A stretch of 64,000 nt of DNA from an uncultured Bacillales bacterium (lineage in GTDB: Bacteria; Bacillota_I; Bacilli_A; RFN20; CAG-826): NCBI GenBank assembly GCA_946414655.1, contig CAMKPL010000002.1, positions 133,765-197,764 of the forward strand, read 5' to 3'. Positions 18,800-61,641 of the stretch are shown in pieces. The position numbers and the translations under genes were made by a program. Below the pieces are notes generated by a model that was not told the origin of the DNA, did no database searches, and was given only the letters and a program-made list of their open reading frames with translations. Every line of letters begins with the position of its first letter. The first letter of the stretch is position 1.

Positions 18800-18967
18800 A
18801 ATATGGTTTACATTTGTAAAAAAATGTTTACAAACACTTTCATTAATAATATATTAATAAGCGTTGTCGCCTCACAAGCTACAACCGCATAGAAAAGGTA
18901 ACTAACTTATTACTCATAGTAATAGACCTTAATAGCGAGTCTTGAGTGAGAAAGTCGAGGTATATTT
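18800..18967 (+). promoter_or_regulatory. rplU 5' leader region containing two short palindromes; possible L21-leader autoregulatory RNA.
   Basis: Palindrome TTTGTAAA-N7-TTTACAAA overlaps a TTTACA(-35)-17-TATATT(-10) promoter. Second palindrome ATTACTCATAGTAAT. The 168-nt untranslated leader is typical of Firmicute rplU operons. Confidence 0.3.
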
Positions 18968-42329: not shown

Positions 42330-42358
42330 ATAGTAGTTATTTAGTAGATTATTAGTAA
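42330..42358 (+). repeat. Site a of the 11-bp-periodic TTAGTAG heptamer direct-repeat motif (ATAGTAGttatTTAGTAGattaTTAGTAAatg), ending at the dxs ATG.
   Basis: Heptamers at 42330, 42341 and 42352 with 11-bp spacing. Related sites at about 49852 and about 58622. Confidence 0.55.
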
Positions 42359-44221
42359 ATGTCTAGAAAGAAAGTTAACAATGTTAAACACGTTAATTTA
42401 AACGAAATCAAAGATCCATCATTTTTGAAGAATCTTTCGTATGCTGAGCTCAACGTTCTTGCTGACGATATTCGTAAAGAAATTATCCGCTGTACTGCCA
42501 AGAATGGTGGACACCTTTCTAGTAATCTCGGAGTAGTGGAATTAACCATTGCTATCGAACATTTCTTTGATTTATCAAAGGACAAACTAATTTTCGATGT
42601 TGGTCACCAATGTTACACACACAAAATCTTAACTGGACGTCCTCTTGAAACATTAAGACAAACAAACGGTATTTCTGGTTTCCAGAAAATCGATGAATCA
42701 ACCTATGACTGTTTTGATGCTGGACATTCTTCAACATCAATTTCCGTAGCAAATGGCTTTGCCATTGCTCGTGATTTAAAAGGTGAAAACTATAATGTCA
42801 TCGCTCTAATTGGCGATGGATCTATTCCTTCTGGATTAGCTTTTGAAGGACTCAATAACATTGCTAGTGGAAAAAATAAAGTTGTTATCATTTTAAATGA
42901 TAATGGTATGTCTATTTCTAAACCTGTTGGTGCTTTATCAAAGTCATTTGGCCGAATTTCAACTGCAGCAGGTTATAACCGTATTAAATACGGATATCGC
43001 CGAGCAATGTTTAAAACCAAAGTCGGTAAGAAGATTTATAATCTTACTTTAAGAATTAAGAACTGGTTTAAACGCCATCTTACTTCCCCAAATATTTTTA
43101 CCGATCTTGGTTTTGCCTATATTGGTCCGGTTGATGGACACGACATTCGAAAGCTTGAAAAAGCATTTAAACGAATTGGAAACACTGAAAAATCAGTGGT
43201 CGTTCATGTATGTACTACCAAAGGTAAAGGCTACGAATTAGCTGAAAACGACAACACCGGATCATGGCATGGAGTTGCCCCATTCAAGATTCAAGATGGT
43301 GTACCTTTAAAATCATCAAATCACGTTAGTTGGTCGAAAGTCTTTGCTGACCTATCTCTTGAAGAGATGAAGAAACATCAAGATGCATTTTTAATCTCTC
43401 CAGCGACAACTGTGGGCGCAGAAATGGAAGAGGTTTTAAAACAATTCCCGGAGAGAAGTCTTGATGTCGGCATTGCCGAAGAACATGCCGCAACACTTTC
43501 TGGAGCACTTTCTCGCGGTGGTTATCACCCCATTATTTCGATTTATTCAACATTCATGCAGCGTGCTTACGATGAAATATCGCATGACATGTCACGTACT
43601 AAAGCGAATGCGACACTACTGATCGACCGTGCCGGACTAGTTGGACGTGATGGTGAAACTCATCAAGGCATCTATGATGCAGCGTTTTTATCAACAATTC
43701 CAGGTGTTGTTATTACAATGCCTTCGACACGTAAAGAAGCCGAATACCTATATAGCGAATCATTCAACAATCACGGTGTATTTGCGATGCGTTATCCACG
43801 TGCCACATGCATTGAGGAAGGAAAAGAAGAACAACTTTCCTTTGGAAAATGGATTAAAGTACGCGAATCTAAATCAAAGAAAGTTGCGGTGATCTCTGTT
43901 GGACATCTCACTCATGAGTTGAATCAACTGGTTGAGGAAAAGCGTCTAGATTGCACAATTTATAACGCTATTTTCATTAATCCAGTTGATGAGGATGCTT
44001 TGAAGAGCCTCCTCTCATATGATAAAATCGTCATTTACGATGCGTATAGCACCCAAGGAGGCCTTGTTTCGCTCGTGACGCTTAAATTATCGCAACTAAA
44101 ATTTAAAGGGCTTATTTCGGCTCGTTGTGTACCAAACGTTTTTGTCAAGCAAGCAACAATCACGGAACAACTCGAATCTTTTGGATTGCTTCCAAGACAA
44201 ATTTTAGAAGAACTTAAATAA
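42359..44221 (+). CDS. dxs: 1-deoxy-D-xylulose-5-phosphate synthase
   Basis: 'DPSFLKNLSYAELNVLADDIR' N-terminus. ThDP motif 'GDGSIPSGLAFEGLNN'. Transketolase-like domains. No Shine-Dalgarno; the start abuts the repeat motif. Confidence 0.85.
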   Translation: MSRKKVNNVKHVNLNEIKDPSFLKNLSYAELNVLADDIRKEIIRCTAKNGGHLSSNLGVVELTIAIEHFFDLSKDKLIFDVGHQCYTHKILTGRPLETLRQTNGISGFQKIDESTYDCFDAGHSSTSISVANGFAIARDLKGENYNVIALIGDGSIPSGLAFEGLNNIASGKNKVVIILNDNGMSISKPVGALSKSFGRISTAAGYNRIKYGYRRAMFKTKVGKKIYNLTLRIKNWFKRHLTSPNIFTDLGFAYIGPVDGHDIRKLEKAFKRIGNTEKSVVVHVCTTKGKGYELAENDNTGSWHGVAPFKIQDGVPLKSSNHVSWSKVFADLSLEEMKKHQDAFLISPATTVGAEMEEVLKQFPERSLDVGIAEEHAATLSGALSRGGYHPIISIYSTFMQRAYDEISHDMSRTKANATLLIDRAGLVGRDGETHQGIYDAAFLSTIPGVVITMPSTRKEAEYLYSESFNNHGVFAMRYPRATCIEEGKEEQLSFGKWIKVRESKSKKVAVISVGHLTHELNQLVEEKRLDCTIYNAIFINPVDEDALKSLLSYDKIVIYDAYSTQGGLVSLVTLKLSQLKFKGLISARCVPNVFVKQATITEQLESFGLLPRQILEELK

Positions 44222-44225
44222 AAAG

Positions 44226-44268
44226 TCATTCGTGTTATGGTTAACATAATATTGAATGATTTTTTTAT
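44226..44268 (+). terminator. Terminator-like hairpin after dxs
   Basis: TCATTC...GAATGA outer stem followed by TTTTTTT. Confidence 0.45.
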
Positions 44269-44286
44269 GCTCTATAGAATAGAAGT

Positions 44287-45480
44287 ATGAGTAAAATCAT
44301 TTTGCATATTGATCTCAACACCTTCTTTGTTCGTTGCGAAGAACTTGTTAATCCATCCTTAGAAGGCCAGCCAGTTATTATTGGTCATAGCGGTCGTGGC
44401 GGAATTGTTTCAACATGTTCATATGAAGCAAGAAAATACGGTGTGCATAGTGGTCAGCCAACATTTAAAGCTCTCGAACTTTGTCCAAATGCGATTGTTA
44501 TTCATGGACATTACGAACTTTATAGTCGTAAATCAAAAGAGTTCTTTAACTATGTTAAGCAGTACTCTAAAATCATCGAAAAAGCCTCCATTGATGAATG
44601 TTATGTCGATATGACAAAGCAGCTTTCAAATGTGAAAGATGTTGTGGCGTATCTAAAAGAATTCCAAAATAAATTACTTCAAACAGTTGGACTTAAATGT
44701 TCAATTGGCGTTGCTCCAACCAAATTCCTTGCCAAAATGGCAAGCGATATGAAGAAACCAATGGGAATCACCATTATTCGCCGTCGAGATGTTCGTAAAA
44801 TGCTTGATCCACTTCCGATTTCTTCCTTCTATGGAATCGGTAAAAAGACTGCTCCGAGATTAGAAGCAATGGGCGTTAAGACAATTGGTGATTTAGCAAA
44901 GCTAATTAATTCTGATGAACCATCAGTTAAGCAAGCATTCGGCAAATTTTACTATGTCATTAAGGATTGGATTAACGGATATGGTAGCGATGAAGTTGAT
45001 GTCGAACCATGGGATCCAAAATCCATTGGCCACTCGACAACATTTGTCAGCGATTCAACAGATTTTGATGAAATCCGAGGTTATTTAAAAGATCTTGCTA
45101 AAGAAGTATCCGATGAAGCCAAAGAAAAAGGCAAAATCGGATTTAATGTTCAACTTGTCTTAAAGACAAACGAATTCAAAACAATTAATCGTTCAGTCAA
45201 ATTGCCTAAACCAACAAACGATTTTGAAACAATTTATAATGAGGCTTCGATTCTTTTAGAAAAGAACCTTAATGGTCAAGAAATTCGTCTATGTGGTGTA
45301 ACGCTACAAAATCTGATTTATGCTTCTGATTATGTTGAACAGTTATCAATTTTTGATAATTATGAAGACGACGAGAAGAATGCGACAAGAGATTTAATTC
45401 GTGAACTGAACCGGAAGATGAAGGGAGCCAAGTTTATGCGAGCCTCGGACATCCTTAAGGAGAAGAGAAATGGACATTAA
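44287..45480 (+). CDS. dinB: DNA polymerase IV (Y-family)
   Basis: 'ILHIDLNTFFVRCEE', catalytic 'SIDECYVDMT', little-finger domain. Confidence 0.85.
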   Translation: MSKIILHIDLNTFFVRCEELVNPSLEGQPVIIGHSGRGGIVSTCSYEARKYGVHSGQPTFKALELCPNAIVIHGHYELYSRKSKEFFNYVKQYSKIIEKASIDECYVDMTKQLSNVKDVVAYLKEFQNKLLQTVGLKCSIGVAPTKFLAKMASDMKKPMGITIIRRRDVRKMLDPLPISSFYGIGKKTAPRLEAMGVKTIGDLAKLINSDEPSVKQAFGKFYYVIKDWINGYGSDEVDVEPWDPKSIGHSTTFVSDSTDFDEIRGYLKDLAKEVSDEAKEKGKIGFNVQLVLKTNEFKTINRSVKLPKPTNDFETIYNEASILLEKNLNGQEIRLCGVTLQNLIYASDYVEQLSIFDNYEDDEKNATRDLIRELNRKMKGAKFMRASDILKEKRNGH

Positions 45481-46348
45481 TCGCGCTAAAGAACTCTTCT
45501 TCCAACATCTTCGCGTTGAAAAAGGTCTCTCTGAAGATACTGTTCTTTCCTATGCTTACGATATTAACGAATTCTTTAAAGAATTCAAATATAAAGATAC
45601 TGAAGATATCCTTCCAACAGATATTGGCGATTTTATACGCATTCAAAGTAAAAACAAGATGGCCACAGCAACGATTGCTCGTCGTCTATCTTCTTTAAAA
45701 AACTTCTACATTTTCCTAGAAAAAGAAGATTTTATTCATCTTCCAATGAGGGATGTCGAAACACCAAAAGGAGTGAAGCATTTGCCATCAGTACTTAGTA
45801 TTGAACAAGTTGAGCAACTTCTTGATGCCCCTGATTTAAACAAGGACGAAGGAGTTCGCGATCGAGCAATGCTTGAGCTAATGTATGCATCGGGACTCCG
45901 TGTTAGTGAACTGCTTTCATTAAAAATGAAAAACATTTCTTTCGAGAGAAATATTGTCACGGTAATTGGTAAAGGAAATAAACAAAGAAAAGTTCCTTTT
46001 GGAGATTTTGCAAAGGATTATCTTGTTCAATATATTGACCATGCTCGAAAAAAGAATCCTGGTTCAAGAACTGACTATGTTTTCTTAAATCGATATGGAA
46101 AACCATTATCTAGACAATACTTCTTTTTACAAGTAAAAAAGTATGCCGAACAAGTCGGAATAAAAGAAGATATTTCACCTCATACATTACGGCATTGTTT
46201 TGCAACCCACCTTCTTGAATCCAGTGCGGATATCCGAACTGTTCAAGAAATGCTTGGACATAGCAATATTGCTACAACCCAGATTTATTTAAATATCTCT
46301 ACGCGACGTATCCTTGAAGCGTATGATTTGTATAGCAAACGAAAATAG
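45470..46348 (+). CDS. xerD: Tyrosine recombinase XerD (XerC/D family)
   Basis: Catalytic R..HxxR..Y: '[36 protein letters not shown]'. A xerD-deoB adjacency is also found in B. subtilis. Overlaps dinB by 11 nt. Confidence 0.75.
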
Positions 46349-47576
46349 TTTAGAATATGGACGATTTAGGAGTGAAATTATGAAAAAATTTAAAAGAATC
46401 TTCGTCATTGTAACAGACTCAGCCGGTATTGGTGAAATGCCAGATGCTGAAAAATTTGGTGATAAAGGCACTAACACCTGGGTTCATACCGCGGAAAAGT
46501 GCGGTGGACTGCATGTTCCAAATATGAATGCATTAGGCATTGGTGATCTTGCTCCAGTGAAAGGTACTAGTAAAGTTAGTCATCCACATGCATATAGCAT
46601 GAGATTAAGAGAAGCCAGTAATGGAAAAGACACCATGACTGGTCACTGGGAAATGATGGGTATTTATACAACAAAACCATTTATTACCTTTACAGACACT
46701 GGATTCCCAAAATCGTTAATGGATGAATTAGCTGAAAAAACTGGTCATAAGTTAATTGGTAATAAAGCCGCATCTGGAACCGAAATTCTTAAAGAATTAG
46801 GTGAACAGCAGATGAGAGAAAACTCCTTAATTGTTTATACTTCCGCCGACTCTGTTTTACAGATTGCCGCTCACGAGGAAGTAACTGGTGTTCCTGAACT
46901 TTATCGTTGTTGCGAAATCGCTCGTGAAATCTGCTTACGTCCAGAATATTATGTTGGCCGCGTTATCGCTCGTCCGTTTGTTGGCACAGATGCATCCAAC
47001 TTCAAACGTACACCAAATCGACACGACTTAGCCGTCTCTCCAAGTGGTACTACTGCTATGGACATTCTTAAAGAGAATGGTTATATGGTTTCATGTATTG
47101 GTAAGATTGGTGATATCTTCAATCAATGTGGGGTTGTTAAAACCCAAAAAACTGTCTCCAATAAAGACGGAATGGAAAAGACGATTGATGAATGTAAGCA
47201 CCACGATTTCGAAGGTTTATGTTACATCAACTTAGTTGAATTCGACTCGGAATACGGACATCGTCGTAACCCACTTGGATACGGAAAAGCTCTTGAAGAA
47301 TTTGATGTTCAACTTGGTGAATTAATGGAAGCTTCTAAAGAAGATGACCTGATTATGGTGACTGCTGACCACGGAAATGACCCAACTCATACCGGGACAG
47401 ACCACACCAGAGAAAAAGTTCCTCTAATTTGCTATAGCAAGTCCTTCAAACATGGTAAATACCTTGAAGAACGTGAATGCTTTGCTGACATTGGTGAAAC
47501 TATCCTTCAAAACTTTGGACTTAAGAAAGCCGATACAATGATTGGTAAACCAATCAAAGAGCTTCTTGAAGACTAA
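46314..47576 (+). CDS. deoB: Phosphopentomutase. Probable true start is the ATG at about 46380 with RBS TAGGAGTG.
   Basis: '[14 protein letters not shown]' metal-binding N-terminus, '[18 protein letters not shown]'. The track ORF start (TTG) lies inside xerD. Confidence 0.85.
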
Positions 47577-48160
47577 TTTAGTAAAATTATTTGATGAGAA
47601 AGGCGTCTTATGAGATGCCTTTTTTCTAATTTTGAAATAAGACGAGACAAAGTCTCACGTTCTAAATGGACACTTTGTGCAAGAGTGGTGATGCTCTTAA
47701 ATGAAATTTGTCCTTTGTTAGATTGAAGGTAGAACAGAAAACGTTCCTCAGCACTTTCTAAAGACAAAAGTTTGATATGGTGGTTCAAACGTTTCACAAA
47801 ACTCGATTCAAGTTTCATATATTCCTCAAAAAACTGCGGATCTTTCATAAGATTTTTAAACTCTTCTTTCTTTATAAGAAAGATTTGACTATCATCAATT
47901 GTCGTAACGTTGCCTTTAAATTTGTTATCTTCTCCAAAAACAAGATGTACGCCAAAGAAGTCGTTAGGTTTAATTTCGTTATAAACAATCTCGGTCCCTT
48001 TAAAGGAGTACGACTGAATACGAATAAAGCCAGATTTAACTAATCCAACATAATGACATTCTTCTCCTTCATGAAAAAGAACCATTCCTTTAGGAAAAGA
48101 TTTTGTCGTGTATCCATGTTCTTCCAAAATTTGTATAAAAGTCATAATTTCGTGATTCAA
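47573..48160 (-). CDS. Crp/Fnr-family transcriptional regulator (TTG start in track; an alternative ATG lies 5 codons in).
   Basis: cNMP-binding beta-roll '[24 protein letters not shown]'. C-terminal HTH '[17 protein letters not shown]'. Confidence 0.7.
47597..47628. terminator. Bidirectional terminator between the convergent genes deoB and the crp/fnr-like gene
   Basis: AAGGCGTCT-tatg-AGATGCCTT flanked by T-runs on both strands. Confidence 0.55.
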
Positions 48161-49108: not shown

Positions 49109-49862
49109 GTATTTCTTAATTTTTTCAGGAATAGTTTTACTATTTGGACTGTGGTTTTTAGCAACGCTTATCTTTGATAAGAACTCAATGATTTTTCCAT
49201 CTCCGATTGTTACTTTTGATGCATTAATTCAACTTTTAGGGGTTGGCTATACATATCAATGTTTAGCTTATTCTGTGCTGAAGATGTTGATCGGATTTGG
49301 ATTGGGATTTATTGTGGCGTTTATTCTCGCACTTATTGTGCGTGATAATGACCATTTGTACACATTATTCTCACCAATCATTACAGCCTTAAAAGCCATT
49401 CCAACAGCAGCGATTGTCTTTTTGTTCGTTGTTTTAGTGGATGCCGAATATGCTCCATGTTTTCTTGTAATGATTTTATCATTACCAATCTTATATGAAT
49501 CGCTTGTTAACGGTATGAGAAATATTGATCCTCAAATTCTTGATGCTGTGAAAATCGATGGTGGTAAAGGAATACAAAAGCTCTTTCGTGTTCAACTACC
49601 TTTAGCGCTCCCATATCTGCTTGTCGGTATCATTTCGTCGTTTTCTCTATCTTTTAAGATAGAAATCATGTCTGAAATTGTTACCGGATATACACGTAAC
49701 GGTTTAGGAAGTTTGATTAAATCTGTGCAAATCAATGACCCAACAAATATGGCAGCCATTTTTGCATATTCTTTAATCGCAATTATATTGATGATCATTG
49801 TTTCTATTCCGGCATCTTACTTAAGAAATAAAGTGGCAGTGAAAGCTGGAATTAGTAGATAA
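49086..49862 (+). CDS. ABC transporter permease (binding-protein-dependent, TauC/SsuC-like). No cognate ATPase gene is adjacent.
   Basis: 6 TM helices. EAA-like loop 'KIDGGKGIQKLFRVQLP'. Overlaps the SBP gene. Confidence 0.65.
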   Translation: MKKFITNKYFLIFSGIVLLFGLWFLATLIFDKNSMIFPSPIVTFDALIQLLGVGYTYQCLAYSVLKMLIGFGLGFIVAFILALIVRDNDHLYTLFSPIITALKAIPTAAIVFLFVVLVDAEYAPCFLVMILSLPILYESLVNGMRNIDPQILDAVKIDGGKGIQKLFRVQLPLALPYLLVGIISSFSLSFKIEIMSEIVTGYTRNGLGSLIKSVQINDPTNMAAIFAYSLIAIILMIIVSIPASYLRNKVAVKAGISR

Positions 49863-49882
49863 TTAGTAGTTGTTATCCACTC
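49852..49882 (+). repeat. Site b of the TTAGTAG 11-mer repeat motif (TTAGTAGATAA-TTAGTAGTTGT), overlapping the permease stop codon and abutting the DnaA-box-like TTATCCACT.
   Basis: The two 11-mers are identical to the two 11-mers found at site c. Confidence 0.55.
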
Positions 49883-49934
49883 ATTTATATGTGGAAAAGT
49901 CCTAGTTCAGGGCTTTTTCTTTAGTTAATTGATA

Positions 49935-49975: not shown

Positions 49976-50011
49976 TTGGTATTTGGTTAACATAATATCT
50001 ATTATGCGAAG

Positions 50012-50338
50012 TTATCTCTTTTTCGGACTTTCTAAAACTTGCTCAATGGAAACTCTCTCGCGTTCTTCTTTGGAGAAAATATTCACAATAACATGATAAG
50101 CATCGATCAAAATCCATCCAGATTCTGGAGTTCCTTCTTTGTGCGAGTAATTGACTTTCTTTTCCTCGAGCTTATCGATGATAGCGTCAGCCAATGCTCC
50201 GAGTTGACGAACGTTTGTCGCTGAACAAAGAACATAATATTCCGCGAAAGGCGTTCTTTCTGAGACATCAATTACTGAAATATCTTCTGCTTTATGATCA
50301 GAAAGAACTTTTTTAACCATTTGAACAACTTTATCCAT
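50012..50338 (-). CDS. rsfS: Ribosomal silencing factor RsfS (YqeL/Iojap)
   Basis: 108 aa. 'DKKAEDI...IDV...FADYFVICSGTS'-type pattern ('AEDISVIDVSERTPFAEYYVLCSATN'). Confidence 0.85.
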   Translation of the reverse strand: MDKVVQMVKKVLSDHKAEDISVIDVSERTPFAEYYVLCSATNVRQLGALADAIIDKLEEKKVNYSHKEGTPESGWILIDAYHVIVNIFSKEERERVSIEQVLESPKKR

Positions 50339-52605: not shown

Positions 52606-53111
52606 TCAATTAATTTGCCTTTTCGTTTTAAATGACGACGAATTGGGCGATCAAACAAGCGGTTAAAGTGGGTTGTTGGTTGGTCTTCCTTAACAATTTT
52701 ATCTGTGAGAATACATAGTATTCTAGCACGATTCGCTGAAGCAATATCCGTGACCGTTTGATCACCAATCATCACCGCTGTTTTTAAATCAATTTGTGCT
52801 TCTTTTAGTTTACGAATCAGCTTTCGAGCAAATGGTTTGCCCACTGCTGAGGCATATCTAACTCCGAGAGCATTAGCGTATTCTTGGACACGTTTGCCAG
52901 TGTTATTAGAGATGATGAATAACTCAATCCCATTTTCTTCAAGAAGCTGCTTAAATGAAACAACATTTGCGCTCGGTGTTTTTGTTTTATACGAATCTAG
53001 AGTATTGTCTAGATCCGATAAAACGGTCTTAATCCCATGCTTTTTATAAAAATCAATTTCGATTTCGAATATTGATTTCGCATGAGCATAAGGAGTGTAA
53101 ACTTTGCACAT
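52590..53111 (-). CDS. yqeG: HAD-superfamily phosphatase YqeG
   Basis: 'VLSDLDNTL' DxD motif, 'IISNN', 'MIGDQTVTD'. Confidence 0.75.
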   Translation of the reverse strand: MCKVYTPYAHAKSIFEIEIDFYKKHGIKTVLSDLDNTLDSYKTKTPSANVVSFKQLLEENGIELFIISNNTGKRVQEYANALGVRYASAVGKPFARKLIRKLKEAQIDLKTAVMIGDQTVTDIASANRARILCILTDKIVKEDQPTTHFNRLFDRPIRRHLKRKGKLIDWRER

Positions 53112-53169
53112 ATCTTAATTATACACATTCTTTAGTTAACTAAAAGTGAGAATAATTCGCATATGTATG

Positions 53170-57884: not shown

Positions 57885-58625
57885 ATGGATATTATTTTAT
57901 ATAATATAATCGTCGGTTTTTTATCATTAATTTTAGGTTATTTTTTTGGTTCTATTCCAACAGGAATCATTCTTGGAAAGGTCTTTTTTCATCGTGATCC
58001 ACGTCAAGAAGGGTCAAAAAACTCGGGTGGAACGAACGTCGGAAGACTATTTGGCAAGAAAATTGGCTTACTTTGCATCATCCTCGATATGATCAAAACT
58101 GTGATTCCTTTAATAATTGTTTGGTCAATTATTAAATTCTCTTCCTTAAATCAAGTTTTAGTCGACAACTTTGGTTCAGGCTTATGGAACAACGGAGTCC
58201 TTTATATTTATCTTGCTCCTTTAGGAGCAATGGTTGGACATTGTTATCCTGTGTTTGCGAAGTTTAATGGAGGTAAAGCTGTGGCAACTGTCGCAGGATT
58301 TGTTCTTGCGACATCTTGGTTACTCTCTGTTCTCGGCTTAGCAGTCTTCTTTATAGTTCTAAAAATTAAAAAGTATGTCTCACTTGGTTCAATTGTAACA
58401 ATCATTGCCGTGACACTCGTTGCTTGGATTATGGTCATCGTTAAATACTTTGGTCCAGTCTCATTTGCAAACTTCGGAATGTATGGTTGGGGCGATTATG
58501 TTGTTGCCGGATTTGAGTATGCCGGGGTGATGACATTCGGAGCGGCGTTATTAATCTATAGACACCGCGCAAACATCAAACGATTGGCCAACCATGAAGA
58601 ATCAAAAATTAAGTGGTTAAGTTAG
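57885..58625 (+). CDS. plsY: Glycerol-3-phosphate acyltransferase PlsY
   Basis: 'GSKNSGGTNVGR' motif. Polytopic membrane protein, 246 aa with an internal insertion. Confidence 0.8.
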   Translation: MDIILYNIIVGFLSLILGYFFGSIPTGIILGKVFFHRDPRQEGSKNSGGTNVGRLFGKKIGLLCIILDMIKTVIPLIIVWSIIKFSSLNQVLVDNFGSGLWNNGVLYIYLAPLGAMVGHCYPVFAKFNGGKAVATVAGFVLATSWLLSVLGLAVFFIVLKIKKYVSLGSIVTIIAVTLVAWIMVIVKYFGPVSFANFGMYGWGDYVVAGFEYAGVMTFGAALLIYRHRANIKRLANHEESKIKWLS

Positions 58626-58654
58626 TAGTTGTTTAGTAGCAAATTAGTAGATAA
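58622..58654 (+). repeat. Site c of the TTAGTAG repeat motif: three perfect heptamers at 11-bp spacing (TTAGTAGttgtTTAGTAGcaaaTTAGTAGataatta), overlapping the plsY stop codon.
   Basis: Heptamers at 58622, 58633 and 58644. A perfect DnaA-box 9-mer (TGTGGATAA = rc TTATCCACA) lies 35 bp downstream at about 58685-58693. Confidence 0.6.
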
Positions 58655-58670
58655 TTACACTGTTGATAAA

Positions 58671-58738
58671 ACACTCATCGTTATTGTGGATAAACAAATT
58701 ATTCCGATTTGATGGGTGTTTTTCATTGACACTTTTTA
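58671..58738 (+). terminator. Possible long-loop terminator for plsY
   Basis: AAACACUCAUC...GAUGGGUGUUU (11 bp, one G-U pair) followed by UUUUU. Confidence 0.3.
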
Positions 58739-58800
58739 AAATCGTCAACGTACCACTACCACTACTGCTCAAAATTTTTATATAGCAAAATCGGGCACAA

Positions 58801-60495: not shown

Positions 60496-60582
60496 AGTTA
60501 TTTCCTCCGTTAAGCAAGTAAGATAATACCACAAGGCTAAAAATATATCTACAAGATATTTTAAGAATGATATAATCAATTC

Positions 60583-61641
60583 ATGGCTCAATTAGCTCGA
60601 GAAAAAACAAAACAAATTCATGTTGGAAAGATTGCTCTTGGTGGACAGAACAAAGTTTTAATCCAATCCATGTGTAATATTAAAACATCCAACTTCATTG
60701 AAGTTGCTGAACAAATTAACGCTTGTGCTGCTCTAGGAGCAGACTTAATGCGTGTTAGTGTTTTAGACATGGATGATGCTCACGCGATTAAAGAGATTAA
60801 ATCACGAATTAGTGTCCCATTAATTGCTGATATCCATTTTGACTATAAATTAGCCTTAGCTTCTATTGAAGCTGGTGTTGATGCAATCAGATTAAATCCT
60901 GGAAATATTGGGTCAAAAGAGAATGTCCAAAAAGTAGTCGAAGCATGTAAACAAAAACACATTCCAATTCGCGTTGGTGTTAACTCTGGATCAATCGATA
61001 AGGAAGTGAACAACAACACCGCCATTGTTACCGCCAAAGAACTTGTTGAATCTGTTTCAAGAATGGTAAAAATTCTTGAGGATTTGGACTTCTATGACAT
61101 TGTCATTTCTTTGAAATGTTCTCATGTTCTTGAAACAATCGAGTCTTATAGACTCGCAAGTAAGAAATTTAAATATCCACTTCATATTGGAATCACTGAG
61201 GCTGGACCAAAGGATATCGGACTTGTTCGCTCCGTTGCTGGCTTAGCCCCATTATTAAGTGAAGGTATCGGAGATACAATTCGTATCTCGCTTAGTGATG
61301 AACCAGAAGAAGAAGTGCGTGCCTGTCGACGTCTTTTAAAAGATTTAGGAATCCGAAGCGATTATCCAAATCTGATTTCGTGCCCGACATGTGGTCGAAC
61401 ACAAGTTAATCTTGTTCCGCTTGCCAACAAGATTTCGAAGTTTCTAGAAGAAAACAAGATTAATAAAACCGTCGCTGTGATGGGCTGCATTGTCAATGGT
61501 CCAGGCGAAGCAAAACGCGCTGACATCGGTTGTGCAGGTGGAAAAAACGAATGGGTTATTTTTAAAAAAGATAAAATAATTAAAAAAGTTCCCGATAAAG
61601 ACATTTATAAGGAACTTACTAAACTAATCTTAGAATTATAA
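60583..61641 (+). CDS. ispG: 4-hydroxy-3-methylbut-2-enyl diphosphate synthase (GcpE)
   Basis: TIM-barrel N-terminal domain and C-terminal [4Fe-4S] motif 'CPTCGRT...GCIVNGPGE'. Confidence 0.85.

What the first reader, a model, noticed from the sequence alone, without database searches (positions are those of the whole stretch)
58622..58654. TTAGTAG heptamer repeat family with 11-bp periodicity: site c (three perfect heptamers)
Three loci carry the same composite motif built from two 11-mers. A = TTAGTAGTTGT and B = TTAGTAGATAA.
- Site c (this range): A - TTAGTAGCAAA - B.
- Site b (about 49852): B - A.
- Site a (about 42330): ATAGTAGTTAT - TTAGTAGATTA - TTAGTAAATGT.

Heptamer starts are spaced exactly 11 bp apart, one helical turn. 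That is the architecture of direct-repeat binding sites for winged-helix (OmpR/PhoB-type) regulators or Rep-type iteron binders.

All three sites are in the + orientation and sit right at gene boundaries. They overlap the plsY and permease stop codons, and one ends at the dxs start codon with no Shine-Dalgarno. Each site also places stop codons in all three frames. No annotated feature class explains these repeats.

TAG-rich sequence is unexpected in an AT-rich genome where TAG is a rare stop. A perfect DnaA box (TGTGGATAA) lies 35 bp downstream of site c, and site b abuts TTATCCACT.
Basis: seen in the sequence. Interest (0 to 1): 0.75.

Follow-up and report, generated by a model that had tools for sequence, protein, structure and literature searches.

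The report
Phased TTAGTAG arrays beside DnaA boxes, dif
Short rows of the 7-base word TTAGTAG, repeated every 11 bases, are real and are kept at the same few gene boundaries around the chromosome's replication end-point in a whole group of uncultured gut Bacilli; two rows sit at fixed distances from DnaA boxes and one sits next to the dif site, so they are most likely docking sites for an unidentified DNA-binding protein.

Summary
Pairs of TAGTAG at 11-bp spacing occur 5 times in the window against 0.11 expected. They form exactly three arrays, all intergenic and all on the + strand.

The arrays are conserved at orthologous positions, in the same orientation:
- Site a (xseB–dxs): about 12 species, 35–55% GC.
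- Site b: about 14 species.
- Site c: 10 species.

The heptamer is nearly invariant (unit TTAGTAG-W-T-W-W); the rest of the spacer is free.

New context:
- The window contains the replication terminus, with a dif site at 49985–50012.
- At site b, the last heptamer is followed by DnaA boxes at +10 and +26/27 and by the dif core at +125–127, although the intervening sequence drifts.
- At site c, a DnaA box lies at exactly +17 in 10 of 10 species.

This fixed helical geometry points to a double-stranded-DNA nucleoprotein complex. My best reading is an unidentified oligomerising DNA binder working with DnaA.

The closest analogues are Rok–DnaA (Rok prefers TACTA, the complement of TAGTA), iteron plus DnaA-box modules, and Pho-box architecture. 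No Rok homologue, response regulator or Rep gene was found. RNA-level roles are not excluded, since dxs lacks a Shine-Dalgarno sequence wherever the array is present.

The parts
42330..42362 (+). Site a. Three 11-bp units (ATAGTAGttat TTAGTAGatta TTAGTAAatgt) fill the xseB-dxs intergenic region and end at the dxs ATG (42359). dxs has no Shine-Dalgarno sequence.
   Evidence: An orthologous array lies between the xseB stop and the dxs ATG in L058, L122-L129, L132 and L135 (Dxs identity 49-91%, GC 35-55%).
49852..49872 (+). Site b. Two units (TTAGTAGataa TTAGTAGttg). The permease ORF ends at the TAA at 49860-49862, inside the array.
   Evidence: Conserved in L223-L229, L231, L122 and L126-L128, L135.
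49873..49898 (.). Inverted pair of DnaA boxes: TTATCCACT (49873-49881), 8 bp, TGTGGAAAA (49890-49898). It directly abuts site b.
   Evidence: Measured from the start of the last heptamer, the first box is at +10 and the second at +26/27 in most of 10 relatives.
49893..49919 (+). Intrinsic terminator hairpin of the ABC-permease operon, downstream of the array and boxes.
49985..50012 (+). dif site (Xer recombination site): GGTTAACATAA | TATCTA | TTATGCGAAGT. The XerD-type arm faces site b. It overlaps the rsfS stop codon.
   Evidence: It lies at the + to - gene-orientation switch and the AT-skew sign change. The dif core is at +125-127 from the last heptamer of site b in 9 of 10 species.
58622..58654 (+). 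Site c. Three perfect units (TTAGTAGttgt TTAGTAGcaaa TTAGTAGataa). The first TAG (58623-58625) is the plsY stop codon.
   Evidence: Identical in L001 and L100. Conserved with 2-3 units in L223-L231.
58661..58669 (+). DnaA box TGTTGATAA, 17 bp from the start of the last heptamer of site c.
   Evidence: A box with at most 1 mismatch to TGTGNAWAA lies at exactly +17 in 10 of 10 species. The background rate is 0.0015 per position.
58670..58724 (+). plsY terminator hairpin (AACACTCATC ... GATGGGTGTT, then a T-run). Its large loop contains the perfect DnaA box TGTGGATAA at 58685-58693.
   Evidence: The stem changes compensatorily between species (AACACTCATC/GATGGGTGTT, AACGCTCATC/GATGGGCGTT, AGCCCATC/GATGGGCT); I read this from the alignment, as RNAalifold returned no consensus. 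The second box is at +40/41 in 6 of 10 species.

Best explanation
The arrays are binding sites on double-stranded DNA for a sequence-specific protein that oligomerises head-to-tail. This protein is not yet identified.

How I think it works:
- One protomer binds each TTAGTAG(WT) unit. Units repeat every 11 bp, so all protomers sit on one face of the helix.
- At sites b and c the bound array lies at a fixed distance and helical phase from DnaA boxes. Together they form a composite complex of this protein with DnaA in the replication-terminus region.
- At site b the complex is held a fixed distance of about 126 bp from the XerD arm of dif. It behaves like an accessory or architectural region of dif.
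- At site a (xseB-dxs), and at the aspS-tkt junction in relatives, the same protein bound inside a very short intra-operon spacer would act as an operator or roadblock, setting how much transcription or translation reaches the downstream gene.

Shown: the arrays, their non-random phasing, their conservation, the invariant geometry with DnaA boxes and dif, and the terminus context.

Inferred: that a protein binds the arrays, that DnaA occupies the boxes, and what the complex does.
For: - Phasing. Pairs at 11 bp are at least 45-fold over expectation. Across 72 units, heptamer positions 2-5 are invariant or nearly so, position 9 is mostly T, and the other spacer positions are only constrained to A/T. 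This is the pattern expected for base-specific contacts repeated once per helical turn.
- Orthologous conservation. Position and orientation are kept across species that share only 50-85% protein identity and range from 33 to 55% GC. No other arrays occur in the 20-kb loci.
- Invariant geometry. At site c a DnaA box is at +17 in 10 of 10 species. At site b boxes are at +10 and +26/27 and the dif core at +125-127, while the sequence in between (two terminators) is not conserved. In the 50-55% GC relatives the dif-proximal heptamer is again followed by GGTGGATAA or GGTGAAAAA at +17/18. Conserved length with drifting sequence indicates a spatial constraint on DNA.
- Both orientations relative to transcription occur. 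The arrays upstream of tkt (L126, L127, L132, L135) and between nrdA and nrdB (L020) are antisense. One array in L020 lies upstream of the -35 of a leaderless pfk promoter. A phage contig carries an array in its early control region. These are easier to explain by binding to DNA than to RNA.
- Precedents. Rok of B. subtilis prefers TACTA/AACTA, the complement of TAGTA/TAGTT (PMC6212790). Rok brings DnaA to its sites and clusters near ori and ter (PMC11841835). L230 has TTAGTTG/TTAGTTA units at site c.
Against: - No candidate binding protein was found. There is no Rok-family gene in the window or the held loci, and the Rok family appears restricted to Bacillus. The window holds no response regulator or Rep gene. 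Only 64 kb of the genome could be read.
- Sites b and c lie between a stop codon and an intrinsic terminator, which is also a typical place for 3'-UTR RNA elements.
- Wherever the array precedes dxs the gene lacks a Shine-Dalgarno sequence. More distant Dxs loci without the array have one. This hints at a role in the mRNA.
- DnaA boxes accompany only sites b and c, not site a, the tkt site or the arrays of other lineages.
- Arrays of 3 or 5 units are odd for dimeric binders.
Confidence: 0.5

Rival explanations
1. RNA-level element. UUAGUAG repeats in 5' and 3' untranslated regions act in the transcript. They could be a binding platform for a multimeric RNA-binding protein, in the manner of TRAP or HutP. 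They could be an unstructured leader that allows translation without a Shine-Dalgarno sequence. They could be a three-frame stop block that releases ribosomes before the terminator hairpin. They could be seed repeats that pair with the complementary CUACUAA arrays next to the Shine-Dalgarno sequences of tkt and nrdB.
For: - In sites b and c the array lies between the stop codon and the intrinsic terminator. The same holds for L020 position 4306 and for L027.
- dxs has no Shine-Dalgarno sequence in any array-bearing species, and the array ends 0-7 nt from the ATG.
- Three 11-nt-phased TAGTAG units give double stop codons in all three frames; this follows directly from the sequence.
- Antisense arrays abut the Shine-Dalgarno sequences of tkt and nrdB.
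- The organism uses leaderless-type starts.
Against: - Invariant spacing to DnaA boxes and to dif has no rationale in RNA.
- Both orientations relative to transcription occur. Among co-directional gene pairs the count is 4 sense to 2 antisense.
- One array lies upstream of a promoter.
- Triplet spacing of 0 and 5 nt does not fit TRAP (2-3 nt) or HutP (4 nt); those spacings are from my own knowledge.
- No Rfam family matches and no consensus structure was predicted.
- TAA would be the cheaper stop codon in an A/T-rich genome, yet TTAGTAG is what is conserved.
Confidence: 0.2
2. Operator of an OmpR/PhoB-type response regulator. Tandem winged-helix domains bind the 7-bp repeats, with the wing in the A/T-rich 4-bp spacer, and control a regulon that includes dxs, tkt and plsY.
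For: - The architecture, a 7-bp direct repeat plus a 4-bp A/T-rich spacer at an 11-bp period, is the same as the Pho box (Pho-box layout from my own knowledge).
- In other lineages arrays sit just upstream of -35 elements, for example L020 pfk and degV and L027 ftsA.
Against: - No response regulator or histidine kinase is in the window.
- Sites b and c are in convergent intergenic regions with no promoter to regulate.
- Site a abuts the ATG.
- The neighbouring genes do not form a coherent regulon.
- The idea does not explain the fixed geometry with DnaA boxes and dif.
Confidence: 0.12
3. Polar replication-fork (and transcription) barriers. The arrays would be Ter-like sites bound by a terminator protein, forming a fork trap around dif.
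For: - All array positions of this clade lie within about 12 kb of dif. In the window they are at -7.7 kb, -0.14 kb and +8.6 kb, and none lies in the other 42 kb to the left.
- Relatives have one oppositely oriented array (tkt, -) to the left of the + oriented ones. L020 shows the same diverging arrangement, two - arrays followed by two + arrays.
- The arrays sit at the ends of transcription units.
Against: - All three arrays in the window have the same orientation on both sides of dif.
- Arrays in other lineages lie in loci where no dif was found, next to nrdAB, groEL and ftsA, and one is in a phage.
- No rtp- or tus-like gene was seen.
- Clustering of three sites in one window is weak statistics.
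Confidence: 0.1
4. The arrays are bound by DnaA itself. They would be either DnaA-trio-like TAG repeats or an 11-bp-phased row of very weak DnaA boxes (AGTAGWTWW compared with TGTGGATAA) that extends an ATP-DnaA oligomer nucleated at the strong boxes. The locus would then be a datA- or DARS-like DnaA control site.
For: - TAG is the DnaA-trio consensus, 3'-GAT-5' (PMC6669920 and PMC8287927).
- The unit TTAGTAGATAA matches TGTGGATAA at 7 of 9 positions when the spacer is ATAA, and the conserved T at unit position 9 fits the box.
- Strong boxes sit in the same orientation at fixed distance.
- The low-affinity sites of E. coli oriC are 9-mers with 2-bp gaps, which is an 11-bp period (my own knowledge).
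Against: - Trios must be contiguous with a 3-nt period and lie within a few bp of the box. Here TAG pairs are separated by 5 nt, the register shifts by 1 in each unit, and the gap to the box is 10 bp.
- The invariant TGTG core of the box is AGTA in every unit, and the spacers are mostly not ATAA.
- Site a, the tkt site and the arrays of other lineages have no DnaA box to nucleate binding.
Confidence: 0.06
5. The arrays are chance low-complexity sequence or a neutral or selfish short tandem repeat.
For: Most hits to the triple heptamer in public genomes and phages are plain tandem repeats of a single 11-mer.
Against: - In this lineage the spacers differ between units while the heptamers are conserved.
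- The shuffled expectation is about 0.
- Position, orientation and spacing are conserved across 10-14 species.
Confidence: 0.02

Closest known systems
Rok nucleoid-associated protein of Bacillus subtilis, with its TACTA/AACTA sites and its partnership with DnaA
   Same: - The core of the heptamer, TAGTA, is the complement of TACTA, one of Rok's two top-scoring pentamers; the other is AACTA (PMC6212790). The variant TAGTT (complement of AACTA) occurs in L230, L132 and L020.
- Rok oligomerises.
- Rok co-localises with DnaA and recruits it.
- Rok forms clusters near ori and ter (PMC11841835).
- Rok binds intergenic and promoter DNA and mobile elements.
   Different: - Rok covers extended A+T-rich, mostly horizontally acquired regions. 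It does not bind short, strictly phased arrays at conserved core-gene boundaries.
- No Rok-family protein (PF23159/PF26513) was detectable outside Bacillus or in the held sequence.
- At Rok sites DnaA is recruited without DnaA boxes. Here canonical boxes are present.
Iteron plus DnaA-box modules of theta replicons (pSC101, P1, RK2, and the 11/12-mers of Vibrio cholerae ori2 bound by RctB)
   Same: Same-orientation direct repeats regularly spaced about one helical turn apart, next to one or two DnaA boxes at a defined distance. This matches sites b and c. The replicon architecture is from my own knowledge.
   Different: - No rep gene and no clear A/T-rich unwinding element are present.
- The location is the chromosome terminus beside dif, within essential housekeeping genes.
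- There are only 2-3 repeats of 7 conserved bases.
- Site a has no DnaA box.
Pho box and other OmpR/PhoB-family operators
   Same: A 7-bp direct repeat plus a 4-bp A/T-rich spacer, an 11-bp period, head-to-tail repeats, and 2-5 units per site.
   Different: - The sequence is unrelated.
- Sites b and c are not at promoters.
- No cognate regulator was identified.
- Odd unit numbers occur.
Accessory sequences of Xer sites (cer and psi), and the DnaA-box plus NAP-site control loci of E. coli (datA, DARS1/2)
   Same: - Like cer and psi: protein-binding DNA at a fixed distance from the XerC/D core. At site b the dif core is at +125-127.
- Like datA and DARS: a small cluster of DnaA boxes combined with sites for another DNA-bending or architectural protein, placed away from oriC.

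Both comparisons rest on my own knowledge.
   Different: - Chromosomal dif sites normally need no accessory sequences.
- cer and psi accessory DNA lies on the XerC side. Here it lies on the XerD-type side.
- The accessory proteins differ: PepA, ArgR, ArcA, IHF and Fis.
- No function was tested here.
DnaA-trios of the origin basal unwinding system
   Same: The TAG trinucleotide, read on the strand that continues 3' into TGTGGATAA-oriented boxes. This is the arrangement at site c. The trio consensus is from PMC6669920 and PMC8287927. The strand arrangement is inferred from the E. coli oriC sequence as I know it.
   Different: - The TAG pairs are interrupted by 5 nt, giving an 11-nt rather than a 3-nt period.
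- There is a 10-bp gap to the box.
- The location is the terminus, not oriC.

Membership tests
OmpR/PhoB-type response-regulator operator | Direct repeats of 6-7 bp at a 10-11 bp period with a short A/T-rich spacer | tested here: met
   The unit is TTAGTAG-W-T-W-W with an 11-bp period, rarely 12.
OmpR/PhoB-type response-regulator operator | Sites lie at or overlap the -35 region of regulated promoters | tested here: not met
   In the window, sites b and c are between convergent genes, between the stop codon and the terminator, and site a abuts the dxs ATG. Some arrays in other lineages do lie just upstream of -35-like hexamers.
OmpR/PhoB-type response-regulator operator | A cognate response regulator that binds the repeats | not testable with these tools
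   No response regulator is in the 64-kb window.
Rep-type iterons of a theta replicon | Several same-orientation repeats next to DnaA box(es) | tested here: met
   Sites b and c have boxes at invariant offsets. Site a does not.
Rep-type iterons of a theta replicon | An adjacent rep gene and an A/T-rich unwinding element, that is a replicon context | tested here: not met
   The flanking genes are the permease, rsfS, plsY, yneF and efp. The context is the terminus with dif.
Rok-type xenogeneic-silencer binding sites | Preferred pentamer TACTA/AACTA | tested here: met
   TAGTA is invariant or nearly so in 72 units, and TAGTT variants occur. The Rok preference is taken from PMC6212790.
Rok-type xenogeneic-silencer binding sites | A Rok-family protein encoded by the organism | tested here: inconclusive
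   tblastn of Rok against 2.3 Mb of held DNA gave one spurious antisense hit inside xseA. A Rok search of 5.8 billion proteins returned only Bacillus and close relatives. The genome outside the window was not searched.
Rok-type xenogeneic-silencer binding sites | Extended A+T-rich, horizontally acquired target regions | tested here: not met
   The arrays are 22-55 bp long and lie in intergenic regions of conserved core genes with conserved synteny.
DnaA-trio / basal unwinding system | At least 3 contiguous trinucleotide repeats (3'-GAT-5') within a few bp of a DnaA box | tested here: not met
   TAG pairs are separated by 5 nt, and 3 bp (site b) or 10 bp (site c) separate the end of the last heptamer from the box.
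DnaA-trio / basal unwinding system | Located at oriC | tested here: not met
   The region has convergent gene orientation, an AT-skew flip and dif, so it is the terminus.
Ter sites of a replication fork trap (RTP or Tus type) | Located in the terminus region | tested here: met
   The arrays are 7.7 kb and 0.14 kb to the left of dif and 8.6 kb to its right.
Ter sites of a replication fork trap (RTP or Tus type) | Two groups of opposite polarity flanking the terminus | tested here: inconclusive
   All three arrays in the window are on the + strand, on both sides of dif. Relatives have one - oriented array at tkt, to the left of the + arrays. Whole genomes would be needed.
TRAP/HutP-type triplet-repeat RNA sites | (G/U)AG triplets separated by 2-3 nt (TRAP) or 4 nt (HutP), in the sense strand of the regulated mRNA | tested here: not met
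   Triplet gaps are 0 and 5 nt. The arrays at tkt and between nrdA and nrdB are antisense. The family spacings are from my own knowledge.
dif (XerC/D chromosome dimer resolution site), the feature next to site b | Two 11-bp arms around a 6-bp centre, resemblance to known dif sites, a single copy at the point where genes and skew converge, and conservation in relatives | tested here: met
   GGTTAACATAA-TATCTA-TTATGCGAAGT at 49985-50012. It is found at the syntenic spot in 13 related loci; in 2 further loci the strict pattern used missed it because the right arm reads TTATA/TTAT. It lies at the strand and skew switch. The resemblance to E. coli dif (reverse complement ATTTAACATAA-TATACA-TTATGCGCACC) is from my own knowledge.

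The most novel reading that the evidence does not exclude
The heptamer arrays and their phased DnaA boxes form a nucleoprotein module not described before, located at the terminus. An unknown array-binding protein and the replication initiator DnaA assemble at a fixed 12 helical turns from the XerD arm of dif, with a second module 8.7 kb away after plsY. The module could couple completion of replication or chromosome dimer resolution to DnaA status. That would make it a datA/DARS-like timing locus, or an accessory region for Xer recombination or Topo IV action. The same protein would also gate read-through into dxs, tkt and nrdB.
Probability: 0.2. Interest if true: 0.85.

Novelty: new variant of a known kind. 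Interest (0 to 1): 0.62.

Why it matters
If the reading is right, an uncultured clade of gut Bacilli keeps a small fixed-geometry DNA module next to dif and at a few operon junctions. The module is phased heptamers plus DnaA boxes.

DnaA boxes conserved at the terminus, in register with another protein's binding array and with the Xer site, would be a new link between replication initiation control and termination or dimer resolution. That link is poorly understood outside E. coli and B. subtilis.

The motif is short, strongly conserved and easy to synthesise. It therefore makes the question directly testable by pull-down, DAP-seq and footprinting, and it offers a handle on regulation in a lineage with no cultured representative.

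If instead it acts in RNA, it would be a new kind of leader for translation without a Shine-Dalgarno sequence, or a new 3'-UTR element.

Tried and rejected
- Literature search for TTAGTAG returned only primers and unrelated sequences.
- Rfam: nothing at the sites, with gathering or permissive thresholds. RNAalifold gave no consensus structure for the site c region.
- Promoter reading (heptamers as -35/-10, or a leaderless dxs promoter): the distance from the third heptamer to the ATG varies from 0 to 7 nt, L058 has no -10 at the right place, and the scan finds no promoter there. Rejected.
- KOPS/SRS-type polar motifs pointing at dif: site c has the wrong orientation. Rejected.
- Association with dif in general: no dif-like site in the other array-bearing loci L020, L027, L037, L107 and L220.
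- Rok homologue as the binder: not found.
- Depletion of TACTA as a Rok-like genome signature: it is present (observed/expected 0.25-0.29) but explained by lower-order TpA/TAG depletion, with a Markov observed/expected of 0.9. Not used as evidence.
- Candidate binders encoded next to arrays:
  - The extra ORF beside dif in L225-L227 is a membrane protein.
  - The L037 neighbour is an ordinary MarR-like protein.
  - The Crp/Fnr-like protein at 47573-48160 belongs to a family that binds palindromes.
- Triple-heptamer scans of public genomes and phages are dominated by unrelated single-11-mer tandem repeats. Only 6 genome loci and 1 phage locus resemble the arrays described here.
- The inverted box pair at site b as a Crp-type palindrome: the half-sites are everted relative to the CRP consensus, and site c has tandem boxes. 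Rejected in favour of DnaA boxes.
Full report
**Observation**

- Site a: ATAGTAGttat TTAGTAGatta TTAGTAAatgt at 42330-42362, ending at the dxs ATG at 42359.
- Site b: TTAGTAGataa TTAGTAGttg at 49852-49872, followed directly by TTATCCACT.
- Site c: TTAGTAGttgt TTAGTAGcaaa TTAGTAGataa at 58622-58654. Its first TAG is the plsY stop codon.

The heptamer itself is not over-represented (7 found, 5.4 expected). Its 11-bp phasing is:
- TAGTAG-N5-TAGTAG with at most 1 mismatch: 5 found against 0.11 expected.
- Same-strand TAGTA pairs pile up at distances 11 and 22 only.
- Scores for two and three phased units give 3 and 2 clusters, against about 0 in composition-matched shuffles.

All arrays are intergenic and on the + strand.

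**Organism and neighbourhood**

The window is a 37% GC stretch from an uncultured member of the Bacilli. It carries an L21 leader and the genes hisS, aspS, tkt, xseA, xseB, dxs, dinB, an xerC/D-like recombinase, deoB, a Crp/Fnr-like regulator, an ABC transporter, rsfS, nadD-yqeK, yqeH, yqeG, parC, parE, plsY, yneF, efp and ispG. The nearest named genome is 'Bacillales bacterium UBA4278' (L100).

Three observations place the replication terminus here:
- Genes run on the + strand up to 49.9 kb and mostly on the - strand afterwards.
- The AT skew changes sign at the same place.
- In the convergent gap between the permease gene and rsfS lies GGTTAACATAA-TATCTA-TTATGCGAAGT (49985-50012). This is an 11-6-11 site closely resembling known XerC/D dif sites. 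It is conserved at the syntenic position in every relative examined.

**Conservation**

A scan of GTDB representative genomes for the perfect triple heptamer returned at least 120 loci. Most are plain tandem repeats of one 11-mer (TTAGTAGGTGA and similar) in rumen Bacteroidales. That is a different phenomenon. Arrays with differing spacers, like those in the window, were found only in uncultured gut 'Bacilli/Bacillales/Mollicutes' MAGs: L020, L027, L037, L058, L100 and L107.

Loci fetched through Dxs relatives and PlsY relatives show that each site in the window is an orthologous, conserved feature.
- Site a lies between the xseB stop and the dxs ATG in about 12 species. Their Dxs identity is 49-91% and their GC content 35-55%. 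The central TTAGTAG is nearly invariant.
- Site b is present in about 14 species.
- Site c is present in 10 species.

Orientation is always the same, and no additional arrays occur in the roughly 20-kb loci. Some relatives have a fourth conserved array between aspS and tkt, in the opposite orientation and touching the tkt Shine-Dalgarno sequence.

Across 72 units the logo is T(0.9)-T-A-G-T-A(0.93)-G(0.88)-W-T(0.76)-W-W. The heptamer is conserved and the spacer is only constrained to be A/T-rich.

**Fixed geometry with DnaA boxes and dif**

This is the most informative result. All offsets below are measured from the start of the last heptamer.

At site c:
- A DnaA box (TGTTGATAA, TGTGAATAA or TGTGAATTA) starts at exactly +17 in 10 of 10 species. 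The background rate for such a match is 0.0015 per position.
- A second box (TGTGGAWAN) lies at +40/41 in 6 of 10 species, inside the loop of the plsY terminator.

At site b:
- A box in the TTATNCACA orientation starts at +10.
- An inverted box, KGTGGAWAA, starts at +26/27.
- The dif core starts at +125-127 in 9 of 10 species.
- The intervening sequence, which holds two terminators, is not conserved.

In the more distant 50-55% GC relatives, the dif-proximal heptamer is again followed by GGTGGATAA or GGTGAAAAA at +17/18.

The TGTGG-oriented boxes are thus at +17 at site c and +26/27 at site b. These differ by about one helical turn. Conserved length with drifting sequence, together with helical phasing, are the signatures of a protein-DNA assembly on duplex DNA. 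I therefore place the arrays at the DNA level, as a row of binding sites for a protein that oligomerises along one face of the helix. At sites b and c that protein would work together with DnaA. At site b it would do so at a fixed distance from the XerD-type arm of dif.

**What the binder might be**

No binder was identified. The window encodes no response regulator, Rep protein or RTP/Tus-like protein. Its only regulator is a Crp/Fnr-type protein, a family that binds palindromes.

The best functional analogue is B. subtilis Rok.
- Its winged-helix domain prefers TACTA and AACTA, which are the complements of TAGTA and TAGTT (PMC6212790).
- It oligomerises and bridges DNA.
- It brings DnaA to its sites and clusters near ori and ter (PMC11841835).
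- TAGTT variants of the unit do occur (L230, L132, L020).

However, Rok-family proteins were found only in Bacillus and none in 2.3 Mb of held sequence. Rok targets are long A/T-rich foreign regions. This is therefore 'works like', not 'is a member of'.

The other close architectures are iteron plus DnaA-box modules of plasmid and secondary-chromosome origins, and the Pho box (7+4 bp). The defining replicon context is absent and the promoter context is largely absent. DnaA-trios share the TAG triplet (PMC6669920 and PMC8287927), but the 11-nt period and the gap to the box exclude a true unwinding module, and the region is the terminus rather than oriC.

**What remains open**

An RNA-level role is not excluded.
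- Sites b and c lie between the stop codon and the terminator.
- Three phased TAGTAG units give double stop codons in all three frames.
- dxs lacks a Shine-Dalgarno sequence in every array-bearing species, while more distant Dxs loci without arrays have one.
- The organism shows several leaderless-type starts.

Against an RNA role:
- The DnaA-box and dif geometry has no RNA rationale.
- Antisense arrays exist at tkt and between nrdA and nrdB.
- One array lies upstream of a promoter.
- A phage carries an array in its early control region.
- No Rfam match or consensus structure was found.

A Ter-like fork barrier is compatible with the clustering around dif and with the diverging arrangement seen in relatives and in L020. 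It is not supported by the uniform orientation across dif in the window, or by arrays in loci of other lineages where no dif was found.

In lower-GC relatives (L020, L107) arrays are much denser. L020 has five within 5 kb around nrdA, nrdB, pfk, udk and degV. The protein may therefore be a more general architectural or regulatory factor, of which the window's clade keeps only a few high-value sites.

**Verdict**

The finding is real, strongly non-random and evolutionarily conserved. It is best explained as a phased DNA-binding array for an unidentified protein, forming composite sites with DnaA boxes beside dif and after plsY, and sitting as an operator or roadblock in the xseB-dxs junction. 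It is a new variant of a known kind of element (phased direct-repeat operators or iterons with DnaA boxes), in an unusual and potentially important place.

Noticed in passing
window 49985-50012: A dif site (GGTTAACATAA|TATCTA|TTATGCGAAGT) lies at the convergent permease/rsfS gap and overlaps the rsfS stop codon. Together with the gene-strand switch and the AT-skew flip, it marks the replication terminus. An xerC/D-like recombinase gene lies 4 kb away (45470-46348), and parC/parE lie 3-8 kb to the right.
   Followed up: yes
window 49873-49898 and 58661-58693: Pairs of DnaA boxes lie at the terminus: TTATCCACT with TGTGGAAAA, and TGTTGATAA with TGTGGATAA. They are conserved in relatives at invariant offsets. 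The second box of site c sits in the roughly 30-nt loop of the plsY terminator hairpin.
   Followed up: yes
window 58720-58745; also L223-L231 downstream of plsY: A block TTTTT[C/A]ATTGAC[A/G]NTTTTT directly after the plsY terminator is identical in all relatives, as is AAATTRTTYCGAT inside the hairpin loop. This is unexplained.
   Followed up: no
window 44262-44289 (dinB), 53111-53136 on the - strand (yqeG), 60558-60585 (ispG): Each has a good -10 box (TAGAAT, TGTGTATAAT, TGATATAAT) exactly 6 nt before the ATG and no Shine-Dalgarno sequence. This suggests frequent leaderless mRNAs in this organism.
   Followed up: partly
L002-L121 (for example L013, L023, L046, L075, L103): Rumen and gut Bacteroidales, Paludibacteraceae and Prevotella MAGs carry many tandem arrays of a single 11-mer (TTAGTAGGTGA or TTAGTAGGTTA). 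Arrays have 3-7 copies, and there are several per genome. Degenerate TTAGTATG copies often lie upstream and GTTATAAT downstream. This is a separate, apparently uncharacterised repeat family that shares the heptamer.
   Followed up: partly
L220 3094-3122 (IMGVR_UViG_3300031760_000211): A 32% GC phage contig has a variable-spacer triple array (TTAGTAGataaTTAGTAGattaTTAGTAG). It lies in the 740-bp non-coding region upstream of its erf and exonuclease early genes.
   Followed up: partly
L020 470-5320 (uncultured Bacilli MAG CALVLC010000012.1): Five arrays lie within 5 kb: in the divergent pfk/nrdA region, in the nrdA-nrdB spacer (5 units, antisense), after nrdB just before its terminator, and in the divergent udk/degV region. 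None has a DnaA box, and no dif was found in the locus.
   Followed up: partly
L225 1318-1881, L226 1470-1946, L227 1310-1810: Three relatives have an extra gene inserted between the permease gene and site b/dif. It encodes a 158-187 aa multi-pass membrane protein with no Pfam match.
   Followed up: partly
window, whole; L223-L227: TACTA/TAGTA is the rarest or second-rarest of the 96 A/T-rich pentamers (observed/expected 0.25-0.29 from base composition). The depletion is accounted for by lower-order TpA/TAG avoidance (Markov observed/expected about 0.9).
   Followed up: yes
window 18873-18952: A ribosomal protein L21 leader (RF00559, 43.8 bits) lies upstream of the rplU-rpmA genes.
   Followed up: no
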